The position numbers and the translations under genes were made by a program. Positions 15,422 to 22,793 of a DNA stretch of 30,124 nucleotides are shown one piece after another (the first letter of the stretch is position 1; each line of letters begins with the position of its first letter). The notes beneath the pieces were generated by a model. The model was not told the DNA's origin and made no database searches. It saw only the letters and a list, made by a program, of their open reading frames with translations. The stretch is from Immundisolibacteraceae bacterium (GTDB taxonomy: Bacteria > Pseudomonadota > Gammaproteobacteria > Immundisolibacterales > Immundisolibacteraceae). The stretch is taken from NCBI GenBank assembly GCA_016763355.1, contig JAESTY010000294.1, positions 1 to 30,124 of the forward strand, written 5' to 3'.

Positions 15422-15514
15422 ATGAACAACGAAGACGAAAGCGGGTATGGCGCAACGTATAGGCTGATAGTTTTAATCATATCATTCATTGTTTGCGCCT
15501 TCATCTTTAAGTAG
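15422..15514 (+). CDS. 30-aa antisense-strand single-TM peptide (MNNEDESGYGATYRLIVLIISFIVCAFIFK)
   Basis: Manual translation; AAGGGGGT RBS, TATAAT at 15400-15405; overlaps the 3' end of the large ejection gene. Confidence 0.5.
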   Translation: MNNEDESGYGATYRLIVLIISFIVCAFIFK

Positions 15515-17176
15515 CGATCCCGCTGATAACGCAGAAGACGCTTGTAATAACTCGCGCTTAAATTGAGCTGCCTTAACTGCGTCCTTCACTGTCTCGTTAG
15601 CGATATTATCCAGCGCTTTTAGGTCGATATCGGTATCAAGCAACAAGTCAGAAAGATCGGAAATCCTCCGCTTATTCTTAGGTACAGCTCGTAGGTAAGC
15701 TTTTGTTATCCTTTCTGCGTCCGTACCAGCACTTGCCATAGTCTGTAAAAACTGTGCTCTATTCTTAGTTATGCGCTTGGCTATGCTCTTTGATATCGTA
15801 CCAACTGTGATAGCGCCAATCGCTATGGGAGCTATTGCGCCACCAAGTCCAGGGACGGTACTAGCTATTGCGCCAAGACCACCACCGCCAATTATACTGC
15901 TAAATAGGCTCGGGCTGTTTTCCAGTTTTAACCCCATACCACCAACCAACGAGGCGAAGTTTTGCTTAAAATCACCATCGGTTACTTTTCTGATCGCCGC
16001 AATATCCTCTGAGCTTAGGAATTTTTTGCTTTTCTTTCTGTTCAATAAGTTATTAAGCTCGTTTCTAATTCCTTTCTCGACGCCAGCTTTCCTGCTAGCT
16101 CCCATTTCGATGGCATCTTGAAGCATTTCGGCGCGCTTTGCTCTGCCCCATAATTTACGGGCTGCACGGTATTTCTTGCCAACATCGGCGGCGCTAACTT
16201 TTGAGCCCTTCTGTATGTCGATGGATTTTATTTCATCCAAAAAGCTATCAATTTCATCAACAACAGCAAGGCCAACTCTCATTTTATTTGGATCAGATGA
16301 TACCACTGCGTTTTTAGCTACCGTTCTTAAGGTGTCCATTTCGCTAGTTGGTATCGCTCCACCTTTGGCAATCGATTCTTTAACGGCGTCAATTGCCCCG
16401 GCCGCTTCCGGCGTCACTCTAATGTCGATACCTTCTTTTTTAGCCACAGAGTCAAGGCTGGATTCTAATCGTTTTAATGCCCGTTGATTAATCGATACTC
16501 CAGACTGATCAAGCTCGTCAAATATAGCTCTTGACGCCTTCTTAATGTTTGCGATATCTGGTGCCGATTCGATTATCGTGTTCTTTATTAGCTTGCTAGT
16601 TGGGCTTTTTATCGCGGTTAGTTTCCTTGAACCTTTAATTCCTAATAGCTCAAGCGCCGCTGTTGGCAGTGTGTGCGCGACTGTTGCTAGCGCTGGGCTA
16701 CCAGTTAATTCAAGCACGTTATCGCCTAAGAATTTCTCGGCTTTAGATAGAGCTTCGCCCACTGGCTTTATCGCCTCGCCTATAGCCTGCTGTTGAGATA
16801 TTCCCGCCTCGGTTGATGGCTGGAAGGTTAAAGCTTCGCGAGTCGCCTCAACCGCTCTAGCTCCTGCACCCTTATCAGCGAATGGGTTGATTGCCTGTGC
16901 GATTCCGGCTATTCCAGTCAATGGCTCGGCTACGATACCCGATGCTAACGCGCCCACGTTTTCTAGCACGCCAATAGCCTGATCACCAAAACTCGGATCT
17001 TGCTGTTGAGCTGGTAATTGTGGCTGCGGTTGAGGCTCGGGAGTAGGTGTCGGCGCTTGCTGATCAAAAAGCCCTTGCGACTTAGCGAAATTAAAAATCT
17101 GCTCGTCCGTCGCCCCCTCGGGAGCTTCGATTTTAAACGACTGCCCCGATGGGGTTTGTATGGTTACAATTGGCAT
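15482..17176 (-). CDS. DNA ejection (injection) protein, P22 gp16-position analogue
   Basis: Last and largest of the ejection-like genes; helical Ala/Gly-rich with hydrophobic GG segments. Confidence 0.7.
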   Translation of the reverse strand: MPIVTIQTPSGQSFKIEAPEGATDEQIFNFAKSQGLFDQQAPTPTPEPQPQPQLPAQQQDPSFGDQAIGVLENVGALASGIVAEPLTGIAGIAQAINPFADKGAGARAVEATREALTFQPSTEAGISQQQAIGEAIKPVGEALSKAEKFLGDNVLELTGSPALATVAHTLPTAALELLGIKGSRKLTAIKSPTSKLIKNTIIESAPDIANIKKASRAIFDELDQSGVSINQRALKRLESSLDSVAKKEGIDIRVTPEAAGAIDAVKESIAKGGAIPTSEMDTLRTVAKNAVVSSDPNKMRVGLAVVDEIDSFLDEIKSIDIQKGSKVSAADVGKKYRAARKLWGRAKRAEMLQDAIEMGASRKAGVEKGIRNELNNLLNRKKSKKFLSSEDIAAIRKVTDGDFKQNFASLVGGMGLKLENSPSLFSSIIGGGGLGAIASTVPGLGGAIAPIAIGAITVGTISKSIAKRITKNRAQFLQTMASAGTDAERITKAYLRAVPKNKRRISDLSDLLLDTDIDLKALDNIANETVKDAVKAAQFKRELLQASSALSAGSLLKDEGANNE

Positions 17177-18354
17177 TATCTGATCACCTTGAATCCTGAG
17201 AATTCGCCTGGTTGATCGTTAACTGCTGGCGGCTGATCTTGCTCTCGCTCTTTGCTTCGTAGGAAACCGGCAACCGTACCGCCTTGGTCAAGAAAGTTTA
17301 TTTGCTCGCTATAATAAGATCTCAGCTTTTCCTGTGCTGATTTACGTCTATTCAGATGATCAATAAGCTGCGGGGTATCTAAACCAGTTGGCAAGGCAAC
17401 TTCTTTAGCCAAGTTTAGCTCACCCTCAGATAGCGCGCCAAATGTAACTGAGCCGATAACATCAAGAGCCATGGACTTTTGAATGTTGTCAAGCTCTACT
17501 GATGAAGCTTTAAACGATGGTAAAAACTTCTGAATAGCACCAACGCCAGCGCCAGAATTAAGGACCGTAATAGCTCTATCGATGTTAAGAATTCCAGCGT
17601 TGATTTTTTCAATCTTGCTAAAACCGTTATCAATAACCTTTGACCGCCTTGTCGCCGTTAATTCACCGAACTTTTCACGCTGCTTAATGGTCGCCTTAAC
17701 CTTGCCTATTTGATCCGCTAGACCTTGGTCGCTAATAGTCTGAATTGCTGAGCCAACGGCGCGAGGTGATAATCCAAGCTTAATAAGCGTTGCCTCTTTC
17801 TTCTGATCATCAGTAAGGCCACCAGTTAGAGATTCAAATTCTCGCTCGCCTGCTGTTTTACGCTTGATAGCTTCGGCTTCCGTATCCTTTAGAAAACCAA
17901 GCTGAACACCAGCCTCTTTTGCTGAATCAAGGCCTCTAAGCACCCCCGCGCTATCACCGCTTGCCATTTTAGTAAGAACAGCGTCAGTTCCGGAGGTGTC
18001 GCCATTGAGATTGACAATTGCAGACCGCCTATCGGTAAATAGATCGATAGCACCTTGCATATTGTTATTGGCAACCATATTTCTAGCGCTAACAACATCA
18101 TCAAAGTATGCCTTCTGGCGATCCTTTGATAAGCCTCGAAAAGTAGACGCCACCTGCCCCGCTCGCTGAGGGTCTAACGCCGTCAGCTCTTGAAAGTCCA
18201 AGCTTTGCGACGGGCTAAACGCGCCCTGACCAGCCTGCTGCGCGATACCCTGCTGCAAAGCGTTTATCTGTTGTTGCCGCTGCTGTTGCTGTAGCGCTTG
18301 CCCGGCTTGTTGGCCCTGCGAAAAAGACGCTACTGGGTTAAAATTACTAGCCAT
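17176..18354 (-). CDS. DNA ejection protein, P22 gp20-like position
   Basis: Gln-rich N-terminus, helical; synteny. Confidence 0.65.
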   Translation of the reverse strand: MASNFNPVASFSQGQQAGQALQQQQRQQQINALQQGIAQQAGQGAFSPSQSLDFQELTALDPQRAGQVASTFRGLSKDRQKAYFDDVVSARNMVANNNMQGAIDLFTDRRSAIVNLNGDTSGTDAVLTKMASGDSAGVLRGLDSAKEAGVQLGFLKDTEAEAIKRKTAGEREFESLTGGLTDDQKKEATLIKLGLSPRAVGSAIQTISDQGLADQIGKVKATIKQREKFGELTATRRSKVIDNGFSKIEKINAGILNIDRAITVLNSGAGVGAIQKFLPSFKASSVELDNIQKSMALDVIGSVTFGALSEGELNLAKEVALPTGLDTPQLIDHLNRRKSAQEKLRSYYSEQINFLDQGGTVAGFLRSKEREQDQPPAVNDQPGEFSGFKVIR

Positions 18355-19634
18355 TAATTACTCCCTAAACCTTGTGATAGTCCAAACGCCCCAGCCAAGT
18401 TACCAATTAATTGCGTGGTGTTTTGCCCTGCTGCTAGAGCGGCCTGCGCCTGTGCGTTACCTGACCCTAAAGCTAACGAGCTTAACTGAGAGCCTTGGCC
18501 GGTAGATAGATTGGCCAATAACTGCGCTAACTGAGACTGCTGCTGAGCTGTAGTTAGTCCCGCCTGGCTTTGTATGTTACCTAAGTTTACGCTGCCTGCA
18601 CCGATTATATCAGATAATCCAGCGCCCTGCTGTGCCGCCAATTGCGATAGCTGACTGGTAGTTAAACCGATTTGATTAGCAATGTCTCTGCCAGCCTGTA
18701 ATCGACCTGATGAAACTTGTTGTCCGGTGCCAGCGAATAATCCAGATGATGCTAAACCGCCCTGCTGCTGAAATCCAGCGCCCTGACTTGTTAATTGCGC
18801 GGCTATTCCAGCGCCCTGACCAAATAAGTTAGATTGAGCTCTCGCTGCGCCTAGTCTGTTTGCTGCGCTCGCTATATCGGCTTGCGTGCCGAGTTGAGCG
18901 TTAGTTGATGCTAGTTGCCCTTGCTGCTGCCCTGCTTGGCCCAAGAATGCGCCCGCTTGTCCTGCTGCTTGCAAGCCTTGCCCGCTCAATGCCGACAGGT
19001 TAGCTATTTGCTGTTGAACTTGCTGCGCTGCCTGCGCCTGACCTAGTTGTTGCAATTCTATTCTAGCTTGCCCGCTACCTAAACCACCCAGCGACGCAGC
19101 CTGATTTATTAAAGCTTGCTGTCCTCTTTGGTTTAATAGATCTTGTTGTGGGCTCGATAATAGGGCTTGATCAAAAGCTTCCTGACCGCCAATGCCAGAT
19201 AACGCAGCCTGTAATTGTTGAGCCTGCAAGCCTGCGCCAGAAAACCGATCAACCCCTGCCGCAGCTTGCTGAAACAATGGCTGACCTGTCAGTGGATCCA
19301 CGGATTGCGCTTGCGCACCAAAATCGCCACCTAAGGCGCTTACGCCTCGTTGTATCTGCTCTTGTGCCAAACCTTGCCCAAACTGCAAAGTCCTAAGTGC
19401 TGAGCCTGTGCCTTGCTGTATGGCACCAAGACCACCAGTGAGGCTGCCTCTTAATGCCGCCTCCGAACCAGCTAAACCAAACTGCTGTTGTTGCTGTTGC
19501 TGAGGTTGAAACCGCTGTTGAGGTTGAGGTGCTCCAGCGCCGACTGCTGTAGGTACATTTGATATCGCCCCTTGTTGCGGTTGTGCAAAGGTTGGCCCTG
19601 GGTTTCTGCTAAATTGCTGTAGTGGTGACGCCAT
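18354..19634 (-). CDS. Gln/Gly/Ala-rich DNA ejection/pilot protein
   Basis: Low-complexity amphipathic QAGL repeats typical of ejection proteins; synteny. Confidence 0.65.
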   Translation of the reverse strand: MASPLQQFSRNPGPTFAQPQQGAISNVPTAVGAGAPQPQQRFQPQQQQQQQFGLAGSEAALRGSLTGGLGAIQQGTGSALRTLQFGQGLAQEQIQRGVSALGGDFGAQAQSVDPLTGQPLFQQAAAGVDRFSGAGLQAQQLQAALSGIGGQEAFDQALLSSPQQDLLNQRGQQALINQAASLGGLGSGQARIELQQLGQAQAAQQVQQQIANLSALSGQGLQAAGQAGAFLGQAGQQQGQLASTNAQLGTQADIASAANRLGAARAQSNLFGQGAGIAAQLTSQGAGFQQQGGLASSGLFAGTGQQVSSGRLQAGRDIANQIGLTTSQLSQLAAQQGAGLSDIIGAGSVNLGNIQSQAGLTTAQQQSQLAQLLANLSTGQGSQLSSLALGSGNAQAQAALAAGQNTTQLIGNLAGAFGLSQGLGSN

Positions 19635-19656: not shown

Positions 19657-20208
19657 TTATCTTACCAACCCGGAAAAGTTACCCGGTCCGCCAAGTTTGT
19701 TTTGACCAAAAATCCCAGACAAAGGATCGCGAGTGGTAACCAGTGGACCAACAAATTCCCCTCCTGGTTGCTGCGCTTGTTGTGCGAATGGGTCATTGAA
19801 TTGCGGGAGCTGCTGCTGAAAGAAACTTAAATCAGGCTGCTGCAATTGCGTTGGTTGTAACTGGCTAAGATCGACATTGCCGCCTAATATTGCGTTTTGG
19901 AATTGCGGCAAGCCTGATAATAGTTGCTGTTGCGCTGCTACATTGCCCTGTTGAAACACTTGAGACTGAGCAGGTAAAGACTGGCCGAAAACATCTAGGG
20001 CGCTCTGAAATCCCGCTGCTGCATTTTCTTGCGCGGCAGGGAATAGCTTGAATAAATCGTCTCTAGCCTTATTGGTTGCTCGTGTTGTTGCGGCTTCCGC
20101 TGATGCCACTCCCGCCGCCGTGGCCTTTGACGCCTTACTTGACGCCTTACTTGACGACACCGCGCCTATGATTGCCGCGCCCGCTATTGCTGTTGCTACT
20201 CCTGACAT
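19657..20208 (-). CDS. Small DNA ejection protein, P22 gp7-like
   Basis: N-terminal hydrophobic MSGVATAIAGAAIIGAVSS then SSKASSKASKA; synteny. Confidence 0.7.
   Translation of the reverse strand: MSGVATAIAGAAIIGAVSSSKASSKASKATAAGVASAEAATTRATNKARDDLFKLFPAAQENAAAGFQSALDVFGQSLPAQSQVFQQGNVAAQQQLLSGLPQFQNAILGGNVDLSQLQPTQLQQPDLSFFQQQLPQFNDPFAQQAQQPGGEFVGPLVTTRDPLSGIFGQNKLGGPGNFSGLVR
20127..20156. repeat. 12-bp tandem repeat (TTGACGCCTTAC x2.5) encoding SSKA-SSKA-SKA
   Basis: Read directly. Confidence 0.85.
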
Positions 20209-21074
20209 TTTAAGTCCTCGCTTTCTAATCTTAGTTTTAGTAGGTGAGAGTAATTTATAGTTATCTCCTCGAATGGCTCGATATCTTTAAGCGCTATCAC
20301 ATCAATGTTTTTATCAACGAGCTTCATAGTTGCGTTGGGTTGCTTGGCGTGGTTGATGTATCGACCTGCTGGAGTTCGCTTCCCGTTTATTCTTGATGAG
20401 CAGATAACGTGATCAGCATCTATCTTGCAGGTAGAAAAGAAACCCTTACCTTCAATTTTTGAATCGTCTACATAAAGGTTTTCATAACCGATAGGCATAT
20501 TCATTTGATCAAGCTTACTCTCCACTTGCGATCTTATTTCTTGCTCTGTCATTTCCATCTTATCCACCATGGCTAAGTAATCCATTCTGTTTAGTGACGC
20601 CGTAAATATTTCTAATTCCTCGAAGGTATCAGCGGTGATCATGCTTTGTATTTCGTCGCCGTTATTACCGGTCACCGGATGGACAGTTATCCAAGTTGTA
20701 TCCTCGTGGGCATACCCTGCTCGTTTCTTTCCTGCCATGCCGCTAAAGCAGTTATACCCGGTGAATCGTCGAGTTTCTCCGCTGTCGGTTGATACTGTAA
20801 TGTCGCCACTAATCATAATATCTAAGTGGTTAAACTTATAAATCTGCCCGGTGATCACAGTGCCTTTTGGAATTGTGATTTCTCGCGCATACATCCCACC
20901 GTGGATAGTATGGGTCACTGGGATGCCCACTTGAGGCATAGTCTTTGCGACTTCTTCATACTTAAGCAGCATATCCCTGTTAAGCGTCTTGCTGCCTACG
21001 CAGATATCACCAACCAATGATATTAGATGGCTCTCTATCTGGACCTTCGTGTATTCTTCTGCTGCACAATTCAT
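20196..21074 (-). CDS. Cupin-like domain fused to a SET domain (putative protein lysine methyltransferase)
   Basis: aa 50-135 cupin-like HTIHGGMYAREITIPKGTVITG..NH..MISG..AHEDTTWITVH; aa 199-276 SET motifs GKGFF, RYINHAKQPNA, ALKDIEPFEEITINY. Confidence 0.85.
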   Translation of the reverse strand: MNCAAEEYTKVQIESHLISLVGDICVGSKTLNRDMLLKYEEVAKTMPQVGIPVTHTIHGGMYAREITIPKGTVITGQIYKFNHLDIMISGDITVSTDSGETRRFTGYNCFSGMAGKKRAGYAHEDTTWITVHPVTGNNGDEIQSMITADTFEELEIFTASLNRMDYLAMVDKMEMTEQEIRSQVESKLDQMNMPIGYENLYVDDSKIEGKGFFSTCKIDADHVICSSRINGKRTPAGRYINHAKQPNATMKLVDKNIDVIALKDIEPFEEITINYSHLLKLRLESEDLKCQE

Positions 21075-21340
21075 ATTAAGATCCAGCCTTTTGTTTTGTC
21101 GCCAAGGATATTATCGTCGCGCTTTGCGTATCTGATGTTGCTAGCTGTGCCAGCGCTATCTTGATACGTTGCGCCCTCTGTAGCATCGACCACACCCTCG
21201 GGGTTGCCAGTACCAATGATTAACGATTGGTCGGTGATAATCTTTGTCCATGAGCGCATCTGAGCGGACTGCGAGCCATCACCCTCAACTATTGGCCGGT
21301 CGGTCGGTGGCTGAGTAACTCTAGTTACCATTTTGACCAC
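21071..21340 (-). CDS. Small tail protein at the P22 gp26 (needle/plug) position
   Basis: Follows the gp10-like gene; GTGNPEGVVDA..G..Y..GW motif seen in tail appendage tips. Confidence 0.6.
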   Translation of the reverse strand: MVKMVTRVTQPPTDRPIVEGDGSQSAQMRSWTKIITDQSLIIGTGNPEGVVDATEGATYQDSAGTASNIRYAKRDDNILGDKTKGWILI

Positions 21341-22793
21341 CTCTCATATTTAGCTCTAATTTTATCATTGCCGGTTTAACAGGGTCTGACATCGTAAATC
21401 TAAATACCACGAATCGAGAGAATCGGCCTAGTCGATACCAAATAGCTCGCCTGTTGTACTCGCCAATCTTACCAATCGATCTGCTTAACTCGTCGCCGAA
21501 TGAAACGCCATTGCTTGAAATGTCTAGCCTTACTTGAGGGTTAGTAATCGTTAGGTCACCAACGCCACTTTGAAAGGTCGCCTCAAGCTGTGTAATCGCG
21601 ATAGCGTTGCCTAAATCTGAGATAGGCTGTATTGCCATTACTCTGATTATCTCACTGCCATACTCGCTGAACGTGTCGATATCAACATGTCCAATGCGCC
21701 CGTCTTGAGAGTCGCCGCACAATACCCGGTTGTAAGCCGTGCCGATTGAGTTTGCTCGCCATCTAATGTTTTCGGTCAAGCCTTTGGTGTTGATAATGCG
21801 TGACTTGCGCTCATTCCATTTGTTAGTAATAGTGTTGAATTCAAGTGTGATCGTCGGCAGTGAGAAGCCAATAAAATAGGCCCCTTTCTGCGCGTATGAG
21901 TAAGAGAAAGCTGCCTTTATCTGCGCGTCAGTAAAGCCTTGCAATACTGAATCGATAGCCGTTGTTGACACCTTTTGCACAGTGTTACCCGATAAGGCCC
22001 ACACTGCCGGTGATTCATTGGCACCACCACCGATAAACATAAACGTGTCATTAGTCGGTATTAACGAGAACGCAGAAAACACGCCTTTAGCAATGAAAAA
22101 ACCGGTCCGTTGGAATAAGCCGCCGATGTTTTGAAACTCTTCAATGGTTTCTGAACCCGCAATGTACAGCTTGTTTTTGAAAACGACCGGCGCGACGATA
22201 TCATCTGGATCTGACTCGGCGCTAAATACATCTAACGCGCTCCATACCAACCCTTGATTGGCACTTGAGCGGATAAACTTCTTACTGTCAGTGGTGACAA
22301 CGAAAAACGAATCGATGAAAACTACTTGTTGAGGCGCGCCGTTAGCCGTAAAGCCTGGGCTGGTTATCTGCTGAAATGGCGTACCTGATGTTTCGTCGAT
22401 AATGTAACCGTTGCCGCCTGGTACTAAAATCATTAGCTCTTTGCCGTTGTCAGCCATTGACACGCGATCTTCACCGGGTATGGTCCCAATAGTCACATTG
22501 GTAAATACTTCTGCGCCTTCACCGTCAAAGCTGCGATCAACTCTGATCAACGTGTCGCCATTCAAAAAGTAAGGTAGACCCGCTTTTACATGCATGCCGC
22601 GATTAACCTGCTTGATACTATCGCCGGTTGTTTGTATCTGCTTTAGTCCAGCGCAACCGAATAGGCTACCAGTCGTTAAGGCGCCCTCAGTTTGAGGGAT
22701 GTTCACGTACCAATTGACACACTCTTGCGCGCTAATTGGTAACGAATCGGACTCATAGAATCCGCCATCGATCGGTATGTTTACGCGAGGCAT
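21321..22793 (-). CDS. Tail hub / packaged DNA stabilisation protein (P22 gp10-like)
   Basis: Beta-propeller-like; AESDPDDIV, SETIEEF, EFNTITNKWNER, SRSIGKIGEYNRRAIWYRLG. Confidence 0.9.
   Translation of the reverse strand: MPRVNIPIDGGFYESDSLPISAQECVNWYVNIPQTEGALTTGSLFGCAGLKQIQTTGDSIKQVNRGMHVKAGLPYFLNGDTLIRVDRSFDGEGAEVFTNVTIGTIPGEDRVSMADNGKELMILVPGGNGYIIDETSGTPFQQITSPGFTANGAPQQVVFIDSFFVVTTDSKKFIRSSANQGLVWSALDVFSAESDPDDIVAPVVFKNKLYIAGSETIEEFQNIGGLFQRTGFFIAKGVFSAFSLIPTNDTFMFIGGGANESPAVWALSGNTVQKVSTTAIDSVLQGFTDAQIKAAFSYSYAQKGAYFIGFSLPTITLEFNTITNKWNERKSRIINTKGLTENIRWRANSIGTAYNRVLCGDSQDGRIGHVDIDTFSEYGSEIIRVMAIQPISDLGNAIAITQLEATFQSGVGDLTITNPQVRLDISSNGVSFGDELSRSIGKIGEYNRRAIWYRLGRFSRFVVFRFTMSDPVKPAMIKLELNMRGGQNGN

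What the first reader, a model, noticed from the sequence alone, without database searches (positions are those of the whole stretch)
20196..21074. Cupin-SET lysine methyltransferase fusion coupled to the DNA-ejection proteins
Seen: a 292-aa ORF whose C-terminal ~80 aa carry the three SET signature motifs (G209-K-G211; R238-Y-I-N-H242..P-N; E269-E-I-T-I-N-Y275) and no post-SET Cys cluster. It is preceded by a cupin-like domain. Its stop overlaps the start of the gp7-like ejection gene. Established: SET domains are SAM-dependent protein lysine methyltransferases, and the equivalent slot (after needle, before ejection proteins) holds a GNAT acetyltransferase-like gene in P22 (gene 14) and T7 (gene 13). 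Inference: the slot is reserved for a protein-modifying enzyme, and this phage has swapped acetylation for lysine methylation of ejection or virion proteins, or of a host protein on injection. The cupin could be a reader or a second catalytic unit: H83-L-D85 plus H123/H132 recall an Fe/2OG HxD..H triad, but the His I would expect in the family's GKIHK motif is Tyr here, so metal binding is uncertain.
Basis: partly seen in the sequence, partly recalled or inferred. Interest (0 to 1): 0.88.

Follow-up and report, generated by a model that had tools for sequence, protein, structure and literature searches.

The report
Phage cupin–mini-SET methyltransferase before ejection genes
A marine P22-like phage encodes, just ahead of the proteins it injects with its DNA, a small barrel (cupin) domain fused to a stripped-down but apparently active SET-type protein-lysine methyltransferase. 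Related phages carry other protein-modifying enzymes in the same gene slot, which suggests that the first injected protein is chemically modified before packaging.

Summary
A 292-aa ORF on the minus strand (20196-21074) folds with high confidence (pLDDT 92.5) into a small cupin barrel, a helical linker and a SET domain. The SET domain matches MLL1 SET at Z 10.4 and vSET at Z 9.2. Its catalytic residues are invariant across 42 divergent relatives, but the usual SET-I insert is missing.

The cupin is the constant part. It defines a large phage family (over 3,600 cluster representatives) that sits directly upstream of the first ejection-protein gene. The SET domain is optional and occurs in both domain orders.

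In homologous modules the same slot holds P22 gp14-like DUF2824, true GNATs, GNAT-cupin fusions, AspH-like hydroxylases or sulfotransferases.

The cupin co-occurs with a hydrophobic N-terminal segment on the first ejection protein (16 of 16 distinct loci). A complex prediction docks that segment onto the cupin, but only with weak support (0.59 against 0.00 for the best control).

The substrate and the enzyme activity are untested. The lysine-rich tail of the ejection protein is not specific to SET-bearing phages. The Fe/2OG reading of the cupin is not supported.

This scan has already reported the same fusion on at least 17 other genomes. I found no paper on it.

The parts
20196..21074 (-). 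Whole 292-aa cupin-SET gene
   Evidence: ORF. PHROG phrog_34170 matches over the full length at E 2e-84. 267 homologues were found. AF2 pLDDT is 92.5.
20946..21047 (-). Two N-terminal helices (residues 10-43) that pack on the cupin
   Evidence: DSSP on the model. Residues 13-20 and 40-44 lie in the predicted interface with the ejection protein.
20670..20939 (-). Cupin beta-barrel (residues ~46-135). The canonical metal positions are H83, D85 and H123. The family-invariant residues are Y62, R64 and G90, with K117, R118, W128 and T130 above 90%.
   Evidence: Foldseek and VIA matches to small cupins (DddK, HP0902, PpnP, KdgF; Z about 8.6). Conservation table. phrog_12032 and phrog_24280 match.
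20523..20660 (-). Helical linker (residues 139-184)
   Evidence: Helices 139-146, 151-173 and 177-184 in the model.
20223..20498 (-). Minimal SET domain (residues ~193-284) with GxG (209-211), NH (241-242) and catalytic Tyr275. It has no SET-I insert and no post-SET Zn cluster.
   Evidence: Pfam SET. A profile search of PDB sequences hits MLL and vSET. VIA gives Z 10.4 and rmsd 1.6 A over 80 residues to MLL1, and Z 9.2 to vSET. The motif residues are invariant in 42 representatives.
19657..20208 (-). First ejection protein (P22 gp7-like, 183 aa), translationally coupled by a 13-nt overlap. Residues 1-16 are hydrophobic (20161-20208); the lysine-rich stretch K21-K28 lies at 20125-20148.
   Evidence: phrog_21132 'DNA ejection'. 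44% identical to H6/1 gp16 over residues 22-148. Predicted to contact the cupin through residues 1-14 and 16.
21071..21340 (-). 89-aa gene upstream, coupled by an ATGA overlap. Its counterpart in H6/1 is the 86-aa 'head completion' gp14.
21321..22793 (-). P22 gp10-like head closure / tail hub (Hc3)
   Evidence: phrog_578, E 4e-97.
15482..19634 (-). Three further ejection-type proteins (426, 392 and 564 aa)
   Evidence: phrog_598 'DNA ejection' and a lysin-like hit. Synteny with P22 genes 20 and 16 and with H6/1 gp17-19.

Best explanation
This is a late, morphogenesis-associated protein of a P22-like marine podophage, built from two working parts.

(1) The cupin domain is the conserved core of a large phage family. 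Together with or in place of the GNAT-fold 'internal virion protein A' genes (T7 gp13, P22 gp14), it occupies the slot just ahead of the ejection-protein genes. I infer that it acts as an adaptor or chaperone that holds the hydrophobic N-terminal segment of the first ejection protein (gp7-like) while that protein is made and loaded into the procapsid.

(2) The C-terminal mini-SET domain is an active SAM-dependent lysine methyltransferase brought to this complex by the cupin. I infer that it methylates a lysine of the bound ejection protein, or of a neighbouring virion or ejection protein, before packaging.

Shown: the folds, the conservation of the catalytic motifs, the slot synteny, the interchange of domains, and the co-occurrence of the cupin with the N-terminal segment.

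Inferred: the binding, the enzyme activity and the identity of the substrate.
For: Folds: AF2 pLDDT 92.5 and pTM 0.83. SET matches MLL1 at Z 10.4 with 31% structure-based identity; the cupin matches at Z about 8.6.

The enzyme is probably active. S205, G209, G211, N241, H242, N247, E270 and Y275 are invariant in 42 cluster representatives whose SET parts are only 27-46% identical to this one.

The cupin is the core. The family has 3,610 representatives. Of the best 150, 97 are stand-alone proteins shorter than 195 aa, 9 are SET-less proteins of 195-239 aa, 41 carry SET, and 3 are long without SET.

Slot. The cupin gene abuts or overlaps the gp7-like gene in Thalassomonas phage BA3, Ralstonia phage RSK1, Rhodoferax phage P26218 and Pseudoalteromonas phage PH1, and in nearly all of the 80 IMG/VR loci where the downstream gene lies on the fetched DNA.

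Functional coupling of the domains. Both orders exist, cupin-SET and SET-cupin, and both sit in the same slot.

Parallel with GNAT. In Bordetella phage BPP-1 the order is bbp24 (Acetyltransf_1, E 6.5e-7), bbp23 (cupin), bbp22 (gp7-like). GNAT-fold + cupin fusions sit in a T7 gp13-type slot.

Non-orthologous replacement. H6/1 has DUF2824 in this slot.

Binding.
- The complex prediction scored 0.59 against 0.00 for the best control. The tool's verdict was 'weak support'. The pass mark was reached by 58 of 80 solved complexes and 2 of 110 mismatched pairs, and passes at or below 0.60 are more often wrong than right unless the guess was likely beforehand.
- The interface is residues 1-14 and 16 of the ejection protein against cupin residues that include the family-invariant R64 and the highly conserved K117, R118 and W128-T130.
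- Independently, the window's ejection protein and H6/1 gp16 are 44% identical from residue 22 onward, but only the cupin-bearing phage has the hydrophobic N-terminal 21 residues.
- Among 78 loci chosen by the body of the ejection protein, every cupin locus has the hydrophobic N-terminus (16 of 16 distinct). Among distinct DUF2824 loci 8 have it and 20 have the other N-terminal type; 4 more could not be classed (Fisher p 2.7e-6, not corrected for phylogeny).
Against: - No experiment exists for activity, binding or methyl-lysine.
- The complex verdict is only 'weak', my own alignments were used, and the partner's fold was uncertain in one run. No contact with the SET domain was predicted.
- The lysine-rich stretch after the hydrophobic segment is present in SET-bearing and SET-less phages alike. 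Some SET-bearing phages lack a Lys at the common position (L029, L021).
- The hydrophobic N-terminus also occurs with DUF2824 alone (8 distinct loci), so it does not require a cupin.
- SET is missing from close syntenic relatives (L032, L033, L040), so it is dispensable.
- Without SET-I the substrate groove differs from every characterised SET enzyme, so activity cannot be taken for granted.
Confidence: 0.45

Rival explanations
1. The SET domain targets a host protein. Either the fusion is packaged with the ejection proteins and injected, so that it methylates a host factor (a nucleoid, ribosomal or defence protein) at the start of infection, or it acts on host proteins late in infection. The position next to the ejection genes would then reflect co-packaging.
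For: - Bacterial and viral SET enzymes that have been characterised act on proteins of another organism or on chromatin proteins (vSET and the bacterial effectors NUE and RomA; own knowledge; review PMC3980110 listed).
- The gene is co-transcribed and translationally coupled with proteins that are injected.
- SET behaves as an accessory cassette that is gained and lost, as counter-defence genes often do.
Against: - No evidence shows that slot proteins are in virions. By my recollection P22 gp14 is not a virion component.
- No virion proteomics was found for any carrier.
- A host-directed enzyme has no obvious need for a cupin that always accompanies the ejection protein's N-terminal segment.
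- No signal or packaging motif was identified.
Confidence: 0.2
2. The cupin is itself a metalloenzyme (oxygenase, hydroxylase or lyase) that uses H83, D85 and H123. The protein would then be a bifunctional modifier, for example hydroxylation plus methylation, or a methyl-lysine writer plus eraser.
For: - H83, D85 and H123 occupy the canonical cupin metal positions in this protein; G120-x-x-H123 fits cupin motif 2.
- AspH-like 2OG hydroxylases occupy the same slot in homologous modules.
- The nearest solved folds include metal-dependent small cupins (DddK, KdgF, ectoine synthase).
Against: - The three positions are not conserved across the family: His83 about 64%, Asp85 about 36% (Asn is as common), His123 about 77% of 151 representatives. 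Y62, R64 and G90 are the invariant residues.
- The barrel is about 90 residues, far smaller than JmjC or 2OG double-stranded beta-helix enzymes. No JmjC or 2OG hit appears among the top structural matches.
- The Pfam Cupin_2 and 2OG models do not match the protein.
Confidence: 0.1
3. The SET domain is catalytically dead and serves only as a protein-binding module, so the protein is purely an assembly chaperone.
For: The SET-I insert, which helps to form the substrate and cofactor site in known SET enzymes, is absent. The span is 85 residues here against 124 in MLL1 and 105 in vSET.
Against: All cofactor and catalytic motif residues (GxG, NH, Tyr275) are invariant across relatives at 27-46% identity. 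The GxG-to-NH spacing is fixed at 29-31 residues. That pattern is expected for an enzyme, not for a scaffold.
Confidence: 0.08
4. The protein is a short tail fibre or adhesin, as the PHROG and RefSeq names for the cupin family say.
For: phrog_12032 is named 'short tail fiber protein' and phrog_24280 'tail fiber adhesin'. RefSeq records repeat these names.
Against: - The fold is a single small cupin with no fibre-like repeats or trimerisation helices.
- The gene lies between the tail hub or needle genes and the internal ejection genes, or between terminase and portal in BPP-1. It is not among the fibre genes.
- The name traces to 'putative' annotations (RSK1). No supporting data appeared in the papers I could search.
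Confidence: 0.03

Closest known systems
vSET (PBCV-1 A612L; PDB 1n3j, 3kma)
   Same: A minimal viral SET-domain lysine methyltransferase with no pre-SET or post-SET zinc clusters. The structural match is Z 9.2 with 31% identity over 75 aligned residues; the profile match is E 2.3e-5.
   Different: vSET is a stand-alone protein of a eukaryotic giant virus and methylates histone H3K27. This domain is about 22 residues shorter (no SET-I), is fused to a cupin, belongs to a bacteriophage, and has an unknown, non-histone target.
MLL1/KMT2A SET domain (e.g. PDB 6u9k, 2w5z)
   Same: The best structural match: Z 10.4, rmsd 1.6 A over 80 residues. It shares the GxG, RxxNH and ExxxxY motifs.
   Different: MLL1 has a SET-I insert of about 40 residues and a post-SET region, and it needs WRAD partners. 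It is a eukaryotic chromatin enzyme.
P22 gp14 (Pfam DUF2824) and T7 gp13 (Pfam Phage_T7_Gp13), the 'internal virion protein A' slot
   Same: The gene position is the same, immediately upstream of the first ejection-protein gene. The nearest cultured relative, H6/1, has DUF2824 exactly where this phage has cupin-SET. Cupins are found fused to or next to GNAT-fold slot proteins.
   Different: There is no sequence similarity to gp14, and the folds differ (cupin + SET against GNAT-like). The molecular function of gp13 and gp14 is itself unknown.
Bordetella phage BPP-1 bbp24-bbp23-bbp22
   Same: bbp23 is a homologue of the cupin (34% identity). It is followed by a gp7-like protein with the same kind of hydrophobic N-terminus.
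   Different: The enzyme partner is a separate GNAT gene (Acetyltransf_1), not a fused SET. The trio lies between terminase and portal.
Small single-domain cupins (DddK, KdgF, HP0902, PpnP, ectoine synthase)
   Same: The fold of residues 46-151 matches (Z about 8.6; TM 0.6-0.7 on the target).
   Different: Identity is 10-14%. Those are small-molecule enzymes with conserved metal sites, whereas the metal positions vary in this family.

Membership tests
SET-domain protein lysine methyltransferases (PF00856) | SET fold (beta-sheets with the C-terminal pseudoknot) | tested here: met
   AF2 model pLDDT 92.5. VIA gives Z 10.4 and rmsd 1.6 A over 80 residues to MLL1, and Z 9.2 to vSET. Pfam scores 41.6 bits against a cut-off of 22.4.
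SET-domain protein lysine methyltransferases (PF00856) | Cofactor and catalytic motifs: GxG, (R/H)xxNH, ExxxxY with the catalytic Tyr | tested here: met
   G209/G211, N241-H242 and Y275 are present and invariant in 55 close homologues and 42 distant representatives.
SET-domain protein lysine methyltransferases (PF00856) | SET-I insert between SET-N and SET-C, forming part of the substrate groove | tested here: not met
   The model spans residues 193-277 (85 residues), against 124 in MLL1 and 105 in vSET. The GxG-to-NH spacing is fixed at 29-31 in the whole family.
SET-domain protein lysine methyltransferases (PF00856) | SAM binding and methyl transfer to lysine | not testable with these tools
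   This needs biochemistry.
Cupin superfamily (RmlC-like, Cupin_2) | Small double-stranded beta-helix barrel | tested here: met
   Foldseek probability 1.00 and TM 0.6-0.7 on the target to several cupin_2 structures. VIA Z 8.6. ESM Atlas neighbours carry Cupin_2 or AraC_binding.
Cupin superfamily (RmlC-like, Cupin_2) | Conserved metal-binding motif residues | tested here: inconclusive
   H83, D85 and H123 are present here but vary across the family. The Pfam Cupin_2 model does not match this protein; one tandem-cupin relative reaches 26.3 bits, below the cut-off of 27.2.
Fe(II)/2-oxoglutarate oxygenases (JmjC-type) | Invariant HxD/E...H triad plus a 2OG-binding basic residue in a large DSBH | tested here: not met
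   The triad is not invariant. The barrel is about 90 residues. No 2OG or JmjC structure appears among the top matches, and there is no Pfam hit.
P22 gp14 / DUF2824 and T7 gp13 family | Sequence or fold homology to DUF2824 / PF11090 | tested here: not met
   BLASTP finds no significant match. Only SET passes the Pfam cut-off. The protein is a positional analogue only.
Phage tail fibre / adhesin (PHROG name) | Fibre architecture and a location among the tail-fibre genes | tested here: not met
   The model is globular cupin + SET. The gene position is among the ejection genes.

The most novel reading that the evidence does not exclude
The gene slot ahead of the podophage ejection proteins is a general 'tailoring station'. 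Interchangeable enzymes (GNAT acetyltransferase-fold, SET methyltransferase, AspH-like hydroxylase, sulfotransferase) post-translationally modify the first ejection protein before it is packaged. A cupin adaptor often recruits them by gripping that protein's hydrophobic N-terminal segment. If so, the long-unexplained T7 gp13 and P22 gp14 would be members of a substrate-directed modification system, and the cupin-SET protein would be the first phage enzyme known to methylate lysine on a virion or ejection protein.
Probability: 0.3. Interest if true: 0.8.

Novelty: new variant of a known kind. Interest (0 to 1): 0.6.

Why it matters
Protein lysine methylation is almost unexplored in phage biology. 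The roles of T7 gp13 and P22 gp14 have been open for decades.

This locus, read together with its relatives, gives a concrete and testable picture. A conserved adaptor (the cupin) is tied to the N-terminus of the first ejection protein. Swappable modifying enzymes (methyl, acetyl, hydroxyl, sulfo) are attached to it or sit next to it.

Two cultured phages carry the fusion (Pseudoalteromonas phage PH1 and Rhodoferax phage P26218), so virion mass spectrometry and gene deletion are feasible.

The SET domain lacks SET-I and may be among the smallest SET domains with a full set of catalytic motifs. That makes it of interest for the enzymology of the fold.

Tried and rejected
- Lysine tail as a SET-specific substrate. 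I compared the N-termini of the downstream protein in 26 SET-bearing and about 50 SET-less loci. The lysine-rich stretch is present in both, with no enrichment.
- Lysine content of the other ejection proteins. The lysine-free gp20-like protein occurs in SET-bearing phages and in a SET-less relative (L033), so it is not linked to SET.
- Stand-alone relatives of the SET part. None were found in the word-indexed search.
- Tree of cupin domains with SET mapped on it. There were 32 changes against 36.8 for shuffled labels. The tree of this short domain is too weak to count gains and losses, so I did not use it.
- P22 gp14 as a GNAT. phmmer against PDB gave nothing useful. BLASTP against a true GNAT and against the GNAT-fold domain gave nothing or E 0.013. 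hhalign gave E 0.006 but only 6% probability. The question is left inconclusive.
- Literature. Nine searches and several papers gave nothing on phage cupin-SET proteins, on P22 gp14 or T7 gp13 chemistry, or on virion proteomics of carrier phages.
- Complex prediction. The verdict was 'weak support', score 0.59 with best control 0.00. The mark was reached by 58 of 80 solved complexes and 2 of 110 mismatched pairs, and passes at or below 0.60 are more often wrong than right unless the guess was likely beforehand. I use it only together with the independent co-occurrence data.
Full report
**1. The observation.**
- The window carries a 292-aa ORF at 20196-21074, on the minus strand.
- Its start overlaps the stop of an 89-aa gene by ATGA. 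Its stop overlaps the start of the next gene by 13 nt. It therefore sits inside a tightly coupled late operon.
- On the minus strand the gene order is:
  - Ad3 adaptor, a 544-aa protein, and Hc3 (P22 gp10-like);
  - the 89-aa gene, this ORF, and a 183-aa 'DNA ejection' protein;
  - three more ejection-type proteins of 426, 392 and 564 aa.
- This is the P22 order 4-10-26-14-7-20-16.

**2. What the protein is.**
- Pfam finds SET (E 1.8e-10).
- A profile of 56 homologues hits MLL, SMYD, EZH2 and vSET among PDB sequences.
- AlphaFold2 with 55 homologues gives pLDDT 92.5 and pTM 0.83. The model has two helices, a beta-barrel (residues 53-132), three linker helices, and a beta-rich C-terminal domain (residues 200-284).
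- Foldseek and VIA-align assign residues 46-151 to small cupins (DddK, HP0902, PpnP, KdgF, ectoine synthase; Z about 8.6).
- They assign residues 193-277 to SET domains: MLL1 at Z 10.4, rmsd 1.6 A over 80 residues and 31% identity; vSET at Z 9.2.
- The SET part spans 85 residues, against 124 in MLL1 and 105 in vSET. The SET-I insert is missing and there is no post-SET cysteine cluster.
- S205, G209, G211, N241, H242, N247, E270 and Y275 are invariant in 42 cluster representatives whose SET parts are only 27-46% identical to this one. The GxG-to-NH spacing is always 29-31 residues.
- That pattern argues for an active enzyme with a family-wide minimal architecture.

**3. The cupin is the constant part and SET is optional.**
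- The N-terminal domain alone finds 3,610 cluster representatives.
- Of the best 150, 97 are stand-alone proteins shorter than 195 aa, 9 are SET-less proteins of 195-239 aa, 41 carry SET, and 3 are long without SET.
- Two representatives have the reverse order, SET-cupin. One of them lies in a P22-like module in the same slot.
- Close syntenic relatives of this phage (L032, L033, L040; same gene order, cupin 58-61% identical) have a 142-148-aa cupin without SET.
- Across the family the invariant cupin residues are Y62, R64 and G90, with K117, R118, W128 and T130 above 90%.
- The canonical metal positions vary among 151 representatives: H83 about 64%, D85 about 36%, H123 about 77%.
- An Fe/2OG-type catalytic role is therefore not supported for the family, although this particular protein retains H83, D85 and H123.

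**4. The slot.**
- The cupin gene abuts or overlaps a gp7-like gene in Thalassomonas phage BA3, Ralstonia phage RSK1, Rhodoferax phage P26218 and Pseudoalteromonas phage PH1. The same holds in nearly all of the 80 IMG/VR loci where the downstream gene lies on the fetched DNA.
- The nearest cultured phage by coat protein is Pseudoalteromonas virus H6/1 (61.5% identity). At exactly this position it has a DUF2824 gene, the P22 gp14 family.
- In Bordetella phage BPP-1 a true GNAT (bbp24), the cupin (bbp23) and a gp7-like protein (bbp22) form a trio between terminase and portal.
- A family of 286-aa proteins fuses an N-terminal domain to the cupin. That domain matches phrog_308 'internal virion protein' and folds as a GNAT, with top matches SpeG, Ard1 and RimI. 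The fusion sits in a T7-type arrangement before a T7_gp14-like gene.
- I then fetched 80 loci by the body of the ejection protein, regardless of the slot gene. Of the 78 in which a gp7-like ORF could be called, the upstream gene was:
  - DUF2824 in 41;
  - cupin in 9 and cupin-SET in 9;
  - among the remaining 19: Acetyltransf_1 GNATs (L126, L155), Asp/Asn beta-hydroxylase-like oxygenases (L120, L136), a sulfotransferase (L115), short needle-like ORFs and unclassified genes.

**5. How it may work.**
- The gp7-like proteins come with two kinds of N-terminus. One is a hydrophobic Gly/Ala-rich segment (MSGVATAIAGAAIIGA... here). The other is a '..DTFFGGAEKK..' type.
- Every cupin locus has the hydrophobic type (16 of 16 distinct sequences). 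Distinct DUF2824 loci split 8 hydrophobic to 20 of the other type, with 4 more unclassed (Fisher p 2.7e-6, not corrected for phylogeny).
- In the orthologous pair of this phage and H6/1, the ejection proteins are 44% identical from residue 22 onward. Only the cupin-bearing phage has the hydrophobic 21 residues.
- A complex prediction placed residues 1-14 and 16 of the ejection protein on the cupin. The contacts include R64, K117, R118, W128-T130 and the two N-terminal helices.
- The score was 0.59 against 0.00 for the best control. The tool's verdict was 'weak support': the mark was reached by 58 of 80 solved complexes and 2 of 110 mismatched pairs, and passes at or below 0.60 are more often wrong than right unless the guess was likely beforehand.
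- Taken together, I consider it more likely than not that the cupin binds this N-terminal segment.
- The SET domain would then be held close to the adjacent lysine-rich stretch (K21, K25, K28). This last step is inference only:
  - no SET contacts were predicted;
  - the lysine-rich stretch is equally present in SET-less phages.

**6. Known or new.**
- PHROG lists the fusion as phrog_34170, 'unknown function'. It names the cupin family 'short tail fiber protein' or 'tail fiber adhesin'. The fold and the gene position argue against those names.
- NCBI and JGI give automatic names: 'SET domain-containing protein-lysine N-methyltransferase' and 'cupin family protein'.
- I found no paper on it.
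- This scan has already reported the same fusion on at least 17 other genomes. It has also reported GNAT or hydroxylase pairs in the same slot on about 15 genomes. My independent tests agree with those notes.
- My tests add four things: the contrast with H6/1, the N-terminal-class contingency table, the complex prediction, and a sulfotransferase occupant of the slot.

**7. Verdict.**
It is a new architectural and contextual variant of a known enzyme kind.
- The substrate and the activity are unknown.

Noticed in passing
window 18354-19634 (-): The 426-aa gp20-like ejection protein has no lysine at all and is 21% Gln. Its counterparts in related loci have 0-0.5% Lys, in SET-bearing phages and in a SET-less relative (L033). 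The reason for this lysine avoidance is unexplained.
   Followed up: partly
L115:2225-2872 (also L117, L118); L120:2279-2881; L136:622-1200; L126:2558-2998; L155:2483-2929: In modules with a homologous first ejection protein, the gene just upstream can be a sulfotransferase (Sulfotransfer_2, E 2e-6), an Asp/Asn beta-hydroxylase-like oxygenase (E 1e-9) or a true GNAT (Acetyltransf_1). The slot collects several modification chemistries.
   Followed up: partly
window 20161-20208 (-) and loci L092-L171: Homologous gp7-like ejection proteins carry one of two N-terminal types: a hydrophobic Gly/Ala-rich segment or a '..DTFFGGAEKK..' motif. The swap boundary lies about 20 residues into the protein, so the slot gene and the 5' end of the ejection gene appear to be exchanged together.
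   Followed up: yes
window 20196-20208: The conserved C-terminal 'CQE' of the fusion proteins lies in the 13-nt overlap with the next gene's start (ATGTCAGGAG = MSG...). Its conservation is probably due to dual coding rather than to SET function.
   Followed up: partly
window 21071-21340 (-): The 89-aa protein upstream carries a 'GTGNPEGVVDATEGATYQD' motif. Small ORFs at the same position in relatives share it (L122, L139, L160, L168). Its counterpart in H6/1 is the 86-aa gp14 'head completion protein'. It sits where P22 has the much longer needle gene 26.
   Followed up: no
RefSeq records NC_005357 (bbp23), NC_009990 (BA3_0007), NC_022915 (gp13): The cupin family is named 'short tail fiber protein' or 'tail fiber adhesin' in PHROG-derived annotation. 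The fold and the gene position suggest that this name is wrong and is being propagated.
   Followed up: partly
P0223 (264 aa, metagenomic): One relative is a tandem duplication of the cupin domain with no enzyme domain.
   Followed up: no
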